A DNA stretch of 64,000 bases from Octopus vulgaris. Its lineage: Eukaryota. Positions 52,356 to 53,410 of the stretch are shown here, piece after piece (the first letter of the stretch is position 1; the number at the start of each line of letters is the position of its first letter). Position numbers: made by a program. The stretch covers positions 72,974,001 to 73,038,000 of the forward strand of contig OX597827.1 of the NCBI GenBank assembly GCA_951406725.2, given 5' to 3'.

Positions 52356-52421
<66 letters not shown>

Positions 52422-53410
52422 TATATAAAAGGGCTTAGTAAAATAAATTACTTTGCCGCATACTGAACTCATTAGAAATAGCAGCTAAAAAAACTTTTTT
52501 AAAACTATTTCCAATACTTAAAGAAAATCTCTCTCATATAGTGTTTGCTCAATTCAACTCACGAAAGTATGGGGGTAGAGACATTAAAAAATCAAATGCA
52601 AAGGTTATTTGAGAACGTACGTTTCAAGATTAGTCAAACTCGACACTTCTATCATCAGCTCAGAACTCCCTGGTTTGGATTTGAAAACACTGAAAGTGGG
52701 AGCATACCCTTTCGGCTTCAATCGCTTCTGAAGACCTGCTCGAAACTAACAGTGCCAGCAAATTCAAATATGCAAGCGAAGAATTTCTGCTCTCCCCTTT
52801 CCACCAGCGTGGGTTAAAATCAGTAAACACTGTGCTTTTTTCGGTAAAATCCGAGGCATTAAATAGAGAGAGATGAATTATAATTTCAACAATTGAGGGT
52901 AAAATTAATTAATTAATCAATTTCACCAAGTATTCAGTATGCAAAGGGACCATTTAAGGCGAATTCAAATTATTACATTATATAAAAGGGCTTAGTAAAA
53001 TAAATTACTTTGCCGCATACTGAACTCATTAGAAATAGTAGCTAAAAAAACTTTTTTAAAACTATTTCTAATACTTAAAGAAAATCTCTCTCATATAGTG
53101 TTTGCTCAATTCAACTCACGAAAGTATTTTACTAAGCCCTTTTATATAATGTAATAATTTGAATTCGCCTTAAATGGTCCCTTTGCATACTGAACACTTG
53201 GTGAAATTGATTAATTAATTAATTTTACCCTCAATTGTTGAAATTATATATATATATATATATATAAACTTAGATAAACTTAGATATGTTTCGACCAAAG
53301 ATTGGTCCAGGCCATGTCTAACTTAATAGCACCACCTGATAGGATTATTCGAATCCTGTTTAAGTCAAGTTTTGTTTGAGTCAAGTTTTGTACAAGTAGT
53401 GAGTTCTTGT

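What the first reader, a model, noticed from the sequence alone, without database searches (positions are those of the whole stretch)
52419..53248. Miniature non-coding copy of the PLE architecture: 557-nt HHR monomer, ~1.3 units plus inverted 5' piece
Seen, on the minus strand: an inverted 124-bp segment, then ~710 nt with a 152-bp terminal direct repeat (period 557), one canonical HHR, then (TA)n. The coding PLE has the same layout with a ~4.58-kb period. The whole period is visible and has no RT/EN ORF, so this is not just a truncated PLE end. Inference: a true non-autonomous element (retrozyme-like), plausibly copied from a ~557-nt circular or HHR-to-HHR RNA. This is the best single piece of evidence for the system. 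A fragment recurs at ~35066-35100.
Basis: partly seen in the sequence, partly recalled or inferred. Interest (0 to 1): 0.8.

Follow-up and report, generated by a model that had tools for sequence, protein, structure and literature searches.

The report
Small non-coding Penelope-type retroelement in octopus
This is a short, protein-less mobile element in an octopus TA-repeat that is built like the Penelope-type retrotransposons nearby and carries a weak hammerhead-ribozyme-like motif, so it is a new example of an already described kind of genomic parasite rather than a new system.

Summary
The repeats are real. The direct repeats are 154 nt, 152/154 identical and 557 nt apart. The inverted arms are 124 nt, 123/124 identical. 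(TA)n lies on both sides and no ORF exceeds 91 aa. A coding RT + GIY-YIG element at 1-6583 has the same layout with a 4581-nt period. The host is Octopus vulgaris.

The "canonical HHR" is overstated. Rfam finds no hammerhead. The catalytic core, a 4-bp helix I and a palindromic helix III (ACGUACGU) are present, but helix II has U·U where G10.1-C11.1 is expected, plus only 3 bp. The motif is still not chance: my relaxed descriptor gave 4 hits against 0.005 per shuffled window. One hit lies in neighbouring element B (51855-52368), which is collinear with this one.

Best reading: a non-autonomous Penelope-type insertion made of two 5'-truncated copies lying head-to-head, with two alternative 3' ends 95 nt apart. 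The longer copy exceeds one unit.

A circular RNA template is not shown. A template jump or a second insertion next to the first explains the 557-nt period equally well. No autonomous partner was found in the window, and no octopus genome could be searched. Such PLE-derived elements ("non-LTR retrozymes") are already in print, so this is a new member of a known kind.

The parts
53245..53266 (.). (TA)n next to the 3' end of the short plus-strand copy
53125..53248 (+). It equals unit positions v126-249 and ends at the long 3' terminus.
   Evidence: 123/124 identical to the reverse complement of 52879-53002. A 3-nt overlap (ATA) joins it to the body.
52417..53127 (-). Main body, 711 nt = 1.28 units of 557 nt. 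v1 is at 53127.
52974..53127 (-). Upstream direct repeat (tail module, v1-154)
   Evidence: 152/154 identical to 52417-52570
53027..53073 (-). Tail hairpin (13 bp + 7 bp), v55-101. The second copy is at 52470-52516.
   Evidence: Folds. The hairpin motif AGAAATAG..CTATTTCT is also present in element A and in the 35047 fragment.
52879..52973 (-). 95-nt extension (v155-249) lying between the two alternative 3' termini. Its reverse complement is the 'head' GGGTAAAATTAAT... found next to (TA)n in elements A and B.
52571..52878 (-). 308-nt part present once (v250-557), GC 41%. No BLAST or nhmmer similarity elsewhere in the window.
52604..52668 (-). Hammerhead-like type I motif. The core runs 52658->52614, with predicted cleavage between 52614 and 52613.
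   Evidence: no Rfam hit
52417..52570 (-). Downstream direct repeat (tail module), ending at the short 3' terminus next to (TA)n
52358..52427 (.). (TA)n shared by the 3' end of this body and the 3' end of element B's short copy
51855..52368 (-). Related element B. The minus-strand body is 52286->51855 (432 nt), with an HHR-like motif at 52180->52125, then tail, then extension. An 82-nt 5'-truncated copy lies on the plus strand at 52287-52368.
18338..18624 (+). Related element A: the inverted extension piece, then a ~200-nt body with the tail, between two (TA)n tracts
35047..35103 (-). 57-nt fragment of the tail hairpin region with (TA)n on both sides
35470..35616 (+). Element D, ~147 nt between (TA)n tracts. 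Its HHR-like motif of the same design is at 35507-35573. It is linked to C by motif only, not by BLAST.
   Evidence: no BLAST hit

Best explanation
52417-53248 is one composite insertion of a short, non-coding, Penelope-type (PLE-dependent) retroelement into a (TA)n tract of the Octopus vulgaris genome.

Inferred mechanism. A PLE enzyme supplied in trans nicks both strands of the TA repeat. It starts reverse transcription on the element's RNA from each nick.
- The minus-strand copy started at an internal UA-rich site (v154).
- The plus-strand copy started 95 nt further 3' (v249).
- The two cDNAs met head-to-head and were joined at a 3-nt microhomology.

The minus-strand copy is longer than one unit. 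After reaching v250, the polymerase went on into v249 of a further template. That template could be a second RNA molecule reached by an end-to-end jump, a read-through transcript of a tandem master copy, or a circle. A later insertion directly beside the first would give the same result.

The conserved 3' module is the hammerhead-like motif, then about 45-90 nt, then the tail hairpin, then the extension. I take it to be what the enzyme recognises.

The hammerhead-like motif is a PLE-style minimal type I variant with a palindromic helix III. Motifs of that type are reported to act as dimers. This copy has a degraded helix II and is probably weak or inactive.

Shown: the anatomy, the non-coding nature, the family relations and the non-random motif.
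Inferred: RNA-mediated origin, mobilisation by a PLE enzyme, the order of events and ribozyme activity.
For: 1. The repeat geometry is exact. It matches the coding RT + GIY-YIG element at 1-6583, which has a 4581-nt period, a 534-nt inverted piece and an (ATAT)n end.

2. Published PLE hallmarks are partial tandems, an adjacent inverted 5'-truncated copy, a (TA)n bias, and an extra 'tail' at one end only (PMC8557442, passages). The purified PLE enzyme cuts and extends both strands and starts at two internal RNA sites (PMC11167929, main text).

3. The tail-to-extension junction is part of the template, not an insertion joint.
- It occurs in both arms of C.
- It is collinear in B: v82-266 matches 52043->51835, 61% over 215 nt, E=1.4e-5.

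4. The long 3' end recurs 12-15 nt after ...ATTTTACCC in 3 of 3 composite elements (A, B, C). In B it is the long copy that carries the extension, and in C the short copy. Either nick can therefore use either start site.

5. Copies truncated at the 5' end but anchored at the 3' end exist: element A and the 35047 fragment.

6. Repeats inside C are 98.7-99.2% identical, against about 60-85% between family members. The parts of C therefore come from one source at one time.

7. Hammerhead-like motifs.
- The relaxed descriptor gave 4 hits in the window, against a mean of 0.005 per shuffle and a maximum of 1 in 200 dinucleotide shuffles.
- The strict descriptor gave 2 hits against 0.
- Three hits (B, C, D) have a palindromic helix III: CGCG, CGUACG, CGAUCG.
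- Their helix I sequences differ but all pair: UGAG/CUCA, GCUGCA/UGUAGC, GUGCAG/CUGCAU.
- B has the bulged base and the G10.1-C11.1 pair typical of PLE min-HHRs (PMC4209133, whole text parts 1-2 read).

8. The cleavage site lies 192-197 nt before the 3' end in C, and 183 nt in the coding element.

9. The unit RNA folds better than all 100 shuffles, z = -4.5.
Against: - No hammerhead family of Rfam matches.
- Helix II of C lacks G10.1-C11.1 and has only 3 bp at its base.
- My descriptor was written after seeing C's motif, and it selects for pairing. The helix I 'covariation' is therefore partly built in.
- B and C are not similar by BLAST in the HHR region. In the MAFFT alignment 48 of 113 columns are identical.
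- The HHR is present once and lies outside the repeat, unlike pLTR HHRs.
- No similarity to the 3' regions of the three RT-coding elements in the window was found, so no partner is identified.
- The 95-nt 'tail' is longer than the published 30-40 bp.
- Only one locus shows the 557-nt period. B (432-nt body) and A (~200 nt) are shorter than a unit and cannot show it.
- No other copies from the genome could be examined.
Confidence: 0.65

Rival explanations
1. The 557-nt period comes from a covalently closed, or HHR-to-HHR processed and ligated, 557-nt RNA. This is a true retrozyme life cycle, with rolling reverse transcription around the circle. It is the reader's preferred reading.
For: - The body exceeds one unit and is collinear through every module junction.
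- A hammerhead-like motif is present.
- The unit is more structured than shuffles, z = -4.5.
- Circular templates were proposed for PLE tandems in PMC4209133 (discussion read).
- circRNAs were shown for metazoan retrozymes in PMC7229834 (passages read).
Against: - The helix II of the motif is degraded.
- Minimal HHRs of this type cleave poorly even as dimers (PMC4209133).
- In the only PLE studied in vitro, HHR mutants did not affect insertion, and no reads ended at the HHR site (PMC11167929, main text).
- The tandem junction v249/v250 coincides with a recurrent 3' end, which a circle does not require. The body's 5' end is 43 nt past the cleavage site, not at it.
- The unit of 557 nt is above the 150-450 nt reported for animal retrozymes (PMC7229834).
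Confidence: 0.15
2. Two independent insertions of the same non-coding element landed side by side in the same (TA)n. The first is v1-249 plus its inverted partner. The second is v250-711, placed 4 bp (TATA) downstream. The period is then the length of a linear element, not a template feature.
For: - Only TATA separates v249 from v250, and v249 is a recurrent 3' end.
- This window holds several elements whose ends face each other across one TA tract.
Against: - The repeats differ at only 2 of 154 positions, although family members differ by 15-40%. Both insertions would have to come from the same source at nearly the same time.
- The coding element shows the same partial tandem, and PLE tandems are the rule (PMC8557442).
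- This rival still makes the element non-autonomous.
Confidence: 0.12
3. The structure has a DNA-level origin. 52879-53248 is a foldback or MITE-like DNA transposon (124-bp inverted arms, TA target), and 52417-52570 is a local segmental duplication. No RNA step is involved.
For: - There is a 370-bp near-palindrome with TATA at both outer edges.
- The heads and the reverse complements of the tails share a short AGGG..TAAAAT-like motif, by eye only.
- The window holds other hairpin elements, such as 53529-53685.
Against: - The left arm is not an element end. The sequence continues collinearly with element B's order of HHR, tail and extension.
- Elements A and B have one head each and no matching terminal inverted repeat.
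- 3'-anchored truncated pieces exist.
- The same geometry is seen in the RT-coding element.
Confidence: 0.06
4. It is an assembly artefact: a collapsed or chimeric join of reads in a TA-rich, palindrome-rich region.
For: PLE tandem/inverted structures are said to cause assembly problems (PMC8557442, passage). The region is flanked by microsatellites.
Against: - The repeats are not perfectly identical (2/154 and 1/124 differences).
- The same layout appears in at least three further composites in the window: 1-6583, B, and 63188-63529.
Confidence: 0.02

Closest known systems
[quoted passage not shown]
   Same: - Partial tandem, an inverted 5'-truncated copy at the 5' side, and insertion in (TA)n.
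- An extra 3' stretch at one end only.
- A minimal type I hammerhead-like motif about 190 nt before the 3' end.
- A coding example with the same layout lies in this window at 1-6583 (PMC8557442 and PMC11167929 read as stated).
   Different: - It has no RT/EN frame.
- The unit is 557 nt, not 3-5 kb.
- The HHR-like motif lies outside the repeated part.
- The extra stretch is 95 nt, not 30-40 bp.
- There is no sequence similarity to the coding elements of the window.
Metazoan non-LTR retrozymes (Cervera and de la Pena 2020, PMC7229834; Li et al. 2026 preprint 10.64898/2026.07.22.740005)
   Same: - Short, non-coding and AT-rich (GC 34.5%).
- Carries a type I hammerhead-like motif.
- Co-occurs with PLEs and is thought to depend on them.
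   Different: - Retrozymes are described as arrays (dimers to multimers) of 150-450-bp monomers, each with a canonical type I HHR.
- Here there are 1.28 units of 557 bp, one motif of the minimal PLE type with a weak helix II, and a head-to-head inverted copy.
- circRNA was not tested.
Minimal PLE hammerheads (Cervera and de la Pena 2014, PMC4209133)
   Same: - Core CUGANGA...GAAA, and a short helix I.
- C15.2-G16.2 with a palindromic helix III/loop 3, which implies action as a dimer.
- Often found as single motifs or as pairs on opposite strands.
   Different: - G10.1-C11.1 is replaced by U·U.
- Helix II is 3 bp at its base, against 6-8 bp.
- The related motif in element B does have the bulged base and G10.1-C11.1.
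SINE/LINE-type parasitism through a shared 3' module
   Same: The conserved part of the family (A, B, C, fragment) is the 3' module. The 5' parts differ or are truncated.
   Different: There is no Pol III-type head, no poly(A) or LINE-type tail, and no partner with the same 3' module in the window.

Membership tests
PLE-type insertion (architecture) | Partial head-to-tail tandem (pseudo-LTR) | tested here: met
   154-nt repeat, period 557, 152/154 identical
PLE-type insertion (architecture) | Inverted 5'-truncated copy next to the 5' side | tested here: met
   124 nt, 123/124 identical, joined at a 3-nt overlap
PLE-type insertion (architecture) | Insertion into (TA)n or AT-rich DNA | tested here: met
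   (TA)n at both outer ends
PLE-type insertion (architecture) | Optional 3' 'tail' at one end only (30-40 bp in print) | tested here: inconclusive
   A one-sided extension is present but is 95 nt long. It is about 100 nt in element B and 143 nt at 63188-63529.
Autonomous PLE | ORF with RT and GIY-YIG endonuclease | tested here: not met
   Longest frame is 91 aa. The four frames sent to Pfam gave no hit better than E=0.15.
Hammerhead ribozyme, type I | Conserved core C3-A9, G12-A14, A15.1-U16.1, H17 | tested here: met
   CUGAUGA ... GAAA-CGUACG-UU
Hammerhead ribozyme, type I | G10.1-C11.1 and a helix II of at least 4 bp | tested here: not met
   U·U followed by 3 bp. The motif fails the strict descriptor.
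Hammerhead ribozyme, type I | Helix I pairing across the cleavage site | tested here: met
   UGAG/CUCA, extended by GUU/AAC and further pairs in the MFE fold
Hammerhead ribozyme, type I | Match to a curated covariance model | tested here: not met
   No Rfam hammerhead hit at E<=10 in 111 nt. The control motif beside an RT ORF is also missed.
Hammerhead ribozyme, type I | Self-cleavage | not testable with these tools
   Needs in vitro transcription of monomer and dimer constructs
Minimal PLE hammerhead | Palindromic 15.2-16.2 / loop 3 | tested here: met
   ACGUACGU is its own reverse complement. B has ACGCGU and D has ACGAUCGU.
Metazoan non-LTR retrozyme | Tandem array (at least a dimer) of 150-450-bp monomers, each with an HHR | tested here: not met
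   1.28 units of 557 bp with one motif
Metazoan non-LTR retrozyme | Non-coding and low GC | tested here: met
   GC 34.5%, no ORF
Metazoan non-LTR retrozyme | Expressed as linear and circular monomer RNA | not testable with these tools
   No transcriptome was available
Metazoan non-LTR retrozyme | Sequence relation to the pLTR of a PLE of the same genome | tested here: inconclusive
   No similarity to the three RT-coding elements in this window. The rest of the genome was not searchable.
MITE / foldback DNA transposon | Terminal inverted repeats at both element ends, with a target duplication | tested here: not met
   The left arm is internal to a longer collinear element. A and B lack matching ends. 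A TA duplication cannot be judged inside (TA)n.

The most novel reading that the evidence does not exclude
This octopus family is a PLE-dependent 'mini-Penelope' that replicates from unit-length 557-nt RNAs, either circular or joined end to end. Locus 52417-53248 would then be a fossil of one complete integration event. It records priming from both nicked strands, two reverse-transcription start sites 95 nt apart, and a passage through the unit junction. The two A-to-G differences between its sister repeats both fall on A-U pairs of a 13-bp hairpin. They would be RNA-editing marks copied into DNA, which would be direct proof of an RNA intermediate.
Probability: 0.12. Interest if true: 0.6.

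Novelty: new member of a known kind. Interest (0 to 1): 0.4.

Why it matters
- PLE integration is still poorly understood. Tandem and inverted copies, the one-sided 'tail' and the role of the hammerhead have been studied in vitro for a single element (PMC11167929).
- A short non-coding element that shows the whole layout in 832 bp, with relatives nearby that use the two 3' ends interchangeably, is a convenient natural substrate for testing those steps.
- It would also extend retrozyme-like elements to cephalopods. My three searches and the O. vulgaris repeat paper (PMC13282606, word search: 0 occurrences of 'hammerhead' and of 'non-autonomous') turned up no report of them.
- It does not reveal a new kind of system.

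Tried and rejected
- Rfam, five searches in all: the whole window at gathering score, 1.7 kb at E<=10, and 111 nt at E<=10 around C's motif and around the control motif. No hammerhead hit in any, not even for the control. I therefore judged the Rfam negative uninformative.
- MAFFT alignments of the three HHR-like motifs misaligned the cores. Only the B-C alignment with wider flanks lined them up, and even there helix III and the helix II register are off. I therefore built no covariance model and ran no count of structure pairs. The helix comparison rests on my own parse.
- BLAST (word size 7, E<=10) and nhmmer of the 557-nt unit against the rest of the window hit only A, B and the 35047 fragment. 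v250-557 hit nothing, and nothing hit the RT-coding elements.
- I first read element B as plus-stranded, with its 'head' as a true 5' end. I dropped this when the HHR-like motif turned up on the minus strand.
- I considered that the centre of the 370-bp palindrome coincides with the tail hairpin, which would suggest a snap-back. It does not: the centres are at 53063.5 and about 53050.
- An A-to-G bias in all three internal differences does not hold. The arm difference is U/C on the sense strand.
- The bacterial/archaeal genome collection and the phage, plasmid and E. coli collections were not searched, because they cannot hold octopus DNA.

Full report
**Observation**

On the minus strand, 53248->53125 is the reverse complement of 52879-53002 (124 nt, 123/124 identical). 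53127->52417 is a 711-nt body whose first and last 154 nt are 152/154 identical and start 557 nt apart. (TA)n lies at 53245-53266 and at 52358-52427. The short piece and the body overlap by 3 nt (ATA) at their joint.

No stop-to-stop frame in the region exceeds 91 aa. Of the 18 frames of at least 30 aa, I sent four (91, 82, 60 and 56 aa) to Pfam. None had a hit better than E=0.15.

The window contains no N.

**The coding comparison holds**

- 1-534 is the reverse complement of 4977-5510 at 100% identity.
- 530-1998 equals 5111-6583 at 99.1% identity, with an offset of 4581.
- The element ends in (ATAT)n at 6584.
- Frame 1907-4900 carries RT motifs (YVDD) and a weak RVT_1 match (E=4e-4). Frame 639-1259 has a GIY-YIG match (E=9e-4). 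Both matches are below Pfam's cut-offs.
- The RT part is 100% identical to an NCBI protein of Octopus vulgaris, which names the host.
- The element's 3' end lies about 80 nt into its own ORF. This fits the internal start of reverse transcription reported for a lizard PLE (PMC11167929, main text read).

**The hammerhead**

The motif is GAG-CUGAUGA-[26 nt]-GAAA-CGUACG-UU/CUCA, at 52658->52614.

In its favour:
- Every conserved core base is present.
- A15.1-U16.1 is present, and H17 is U.
- Helix I is 4 bp, and the MFE fold extends it.
- ACGUACGU is its own reverse complement. This is the mark of animal and PLE hammerheads thought to work as dimers (PMC4209133, parts 1-2 read).

Against it:
- U·U stands where G10.1-C11.1 is expected.
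- Only 3 bp follow before an internal loop.
- No Rfam hammerhead model matches, even at E<=10 in a 111-nt search.
- The Rfam result is weak evidence, because the better motif 3' of the RT ORF at 7662-9569 (7127->7080) is missed as well.

A U·U at the base of helix II is reported for one axolotl retrozyme ribozyme that showed some activity (PMC7229834, passage).

I wrote a descriptor requiring:
- the core boxes;
- helix II directly at the core;
- A15.1...U16.1-H17 with a palindromic or hairpin helix III;
- at least 4 bp of helix I.

The strict form (helix II of at least 4 bp) gives 2 hits in the window and 0 in 200 dinucleotide shuffles. The relaxed form (3 bp after an optional base mismatch) gives 4 hits, against a mean of 0.005 per shuffle and a maximum of 1.

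C passes only the relaxed form. I wrote the descriptor after seeing C, so C's own hit is not independent evidence. The hits in B and D are.

**Relatives in the window change the picture**

BLAST and nhmmer of the unit find three related loci:
- A at 18338-18624;
- B at 51855-52368;
- the 35047 fragment.

They share the tail with its hairpin AGAAATAG..CTATTTCT. They also share a 95-100-nt stretch whose reverse complement (GGGTAAAATTAAT...) abuts (TA)n.

In C the order is:
- tail (v1-154);
- extension (v155-249);
- 220 nt (v250-469);
- HHR-like motif (v470-514);
- 43 nt;
- tail again.

B carries a hammerhead-like motif on its minus strand (52180->52125). It has CUGAAGA, a bulged U, GAGA/UCUC starting with G10.1-C11.1, ACGCGU, and a 6-bp helix I. 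It is followed collinearly by tail and extension (v82-266 against 52043->51835: 61% over 215 nt, E=1.4e-5; B-C alignment through the HHR, 48 of 113 columns identical).

B is therefore also a head-to-head pair: a 432-nt minus-strand body that ends with the extension, and an 82-nt plus-strand copy that ends at the tail. In C the roles are swapped, and the short copy has the extension.

The long 3' end sits 12-15 nt after ...ATTTTACCC in A, B and C.

A third motif of the same design (D, 35507-35573, ACGAUCGU, helix I GUGCAG/CUGCAU) lies in a 147-nt block between TA tracts. D is linked to C by motif only, since BLAST finds no similarity.

The part v250-557 of C has no detectable relative in the window, including the three RT-coding elements.

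**Mechanism**

Shown:
- the geometry;
- the non-coding nature;
- a conserved 3' module;
- two alternative 3' ends;
- 5'-truncated copies;
- TA-tract targets;
- near-identity of the internal repeats (98.7-99.2%) against 60-85% between family members.

Inferred: this is the outcome expected if a PLE enzyme, which cuts and extends both target strands and starts at two internal RNA sites (PMC11167929), copies a short non-coding RNA that carries the right 3' module. In that case:
- the two cDNAs meet head to head at a microhomology;
- the stretch between the two start sites appears at one end only, which is the published 'tail' (PMC8557442, passages), though here it is 95 nt;
- the longer copy runs through the unit junction.

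That junction (v249/v250, with only TATA in between) coincides with the recurrent long 3' end. Four routes can therefore produce the 557-nt period:
- an end-to-end template jump between two linear RNAs;
- a transcript of a tandem master copy;
- a circle;
- a second insertion beside the first.

The data here do not separate these routes. The circular-RNA reading is one option, and I put it at about 0.15.

This locus has a single HHR-like motif and cannot itself give an HHR-to-HHR RNA.

**Rivals**

A foldback or MITE origin is unlikely for three reasons:
- The left arm is internal to a longer collinear sequence.
- A and B lack matching ends.
- The RT-coding element has the same geometry.

An assembly artefact is unlikely because the repeats differ slightly, and the layout recurs at 1-6583, in B and at 63188-63529.

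**What is known**

- PLE minimal hammerheads were described in 2014. They are often single or paired on opposite strands (PMC4209133).
- Animal non-LTR retrozymes were described in 2020 as tandem 150-450-bp non-coding repeats with type I hammerheads, thought to depend on PLEs (PMC7229834, passages).
- A 2026 preprint derives them from PLE pLTRs in vertebrates (10.64898/2026.07.22.740005, abstract and section 14 read).
- A curation guide already calls them a possible new type of SINE (PMC8969392, passage).
- PLEs are annotated in O. vulgaris. That paper has no occurrence of 'hammerhead' or 'non-autonomous' in its main text (PMC13282606, word search).
- My searches for octopus or cephalopod together with hammerhead or retrozyme found nothing relevant. 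In one search, all 10 papers listed out of 4,965 had 0 occurrences of 'retrozyme'.

The element works like a non-autonomous PLE derivative. It does not meet the array definition of a retrozyme (1.28 units, 557 bp, one weak motif).

**Limits**

- No eukaryotic genome or transcriptome collection was available. The open genome collection holds only bacteria and archaea and was not used.
- Copy number, other periodic copies, the autonomous partner, expression and cleavage are therefore all untested.
- Supplements of the cited papers were not read.

**Verdict**

This is a real and well-defined feature. Interest 0.4; new member of a known kind.

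Noticed in passing
63188-63529 (with flanks 63045-63618): A second head-to-head composite lies between (AT)n and (TA)n. It has a well-paired hammerhead-like motif on each arm (63318->63246 minus, 63400-63471 plus; helix II GAAGG../..CCUUC). The minus copy runs 201 nt past the cleavage site and the plus copy only 58 nt, so one arm again has a 3' extension.
   Followed up: partly
52470-52516 and 53027-53073: The only two differences between the 154-nt direct repeats (v59 and v89) are A in the upstream copy and G in the downstream copy on the sense strand. 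Both lie at A-U pairs of the 13-bp tail hairpin and turn them into G-U. This looks like an editing-type signature, but n=2. The one difference between the inverted arms is U/C.
   Followed up: partly
6584-6793 and 52358-52427: The 3' ends of two elements on opposite strands face each other across one TA tract. This is seen for the coding element (+) and the RT element at 7662-9569 (-), and again for elements C and B.
   Followed up: no
1786-1819 and 6367-6400: The hammerhead-like motif of the coding element reads CUGAUGC (C where A9 is expected) in both pLTR copies. It has a perfect 6-bp helix II (GUCACA/UGUGAC) and a non-palindromic helix III.
   Followed up: partly
54880-55013: A 134-nt palindrome (98.5%) lies between TA tracts, with CUGAAGA...GAAA on both arms. 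It did not pass my descriptor.
   Followed up: no
1907-4900: The RT frame of the coding element carries a roughly 250-aa Asn/Ser-rich low-complexity insert upstream of the RT motifs. The downstream EN copy is broken into several frames, while the upstream copy (639-1259) is open.
   Followed up: no
53529-53685: A hairpin with 66-nt arms (94%) gives a weak match to the plant miRNA family MIR6288 (45 bits, gathering score 74). It is probably a MITE-like hairpin, not a miRNA gene.
   Followed up: no
48546-49297 and 58750-59124: There are tandem arrays of a 184-191-bp unit (4.0 and 2.0 copies). Many dispersed partial copies occur across the window, for example at 16305-16405, 26408-26750 and 29795-30327.
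   Followed up: no
53267-53412: A 146-nt block is sandwiched between two (TA)n tracts directly beside the element. It has no similarity to the family.
   Followed up: no
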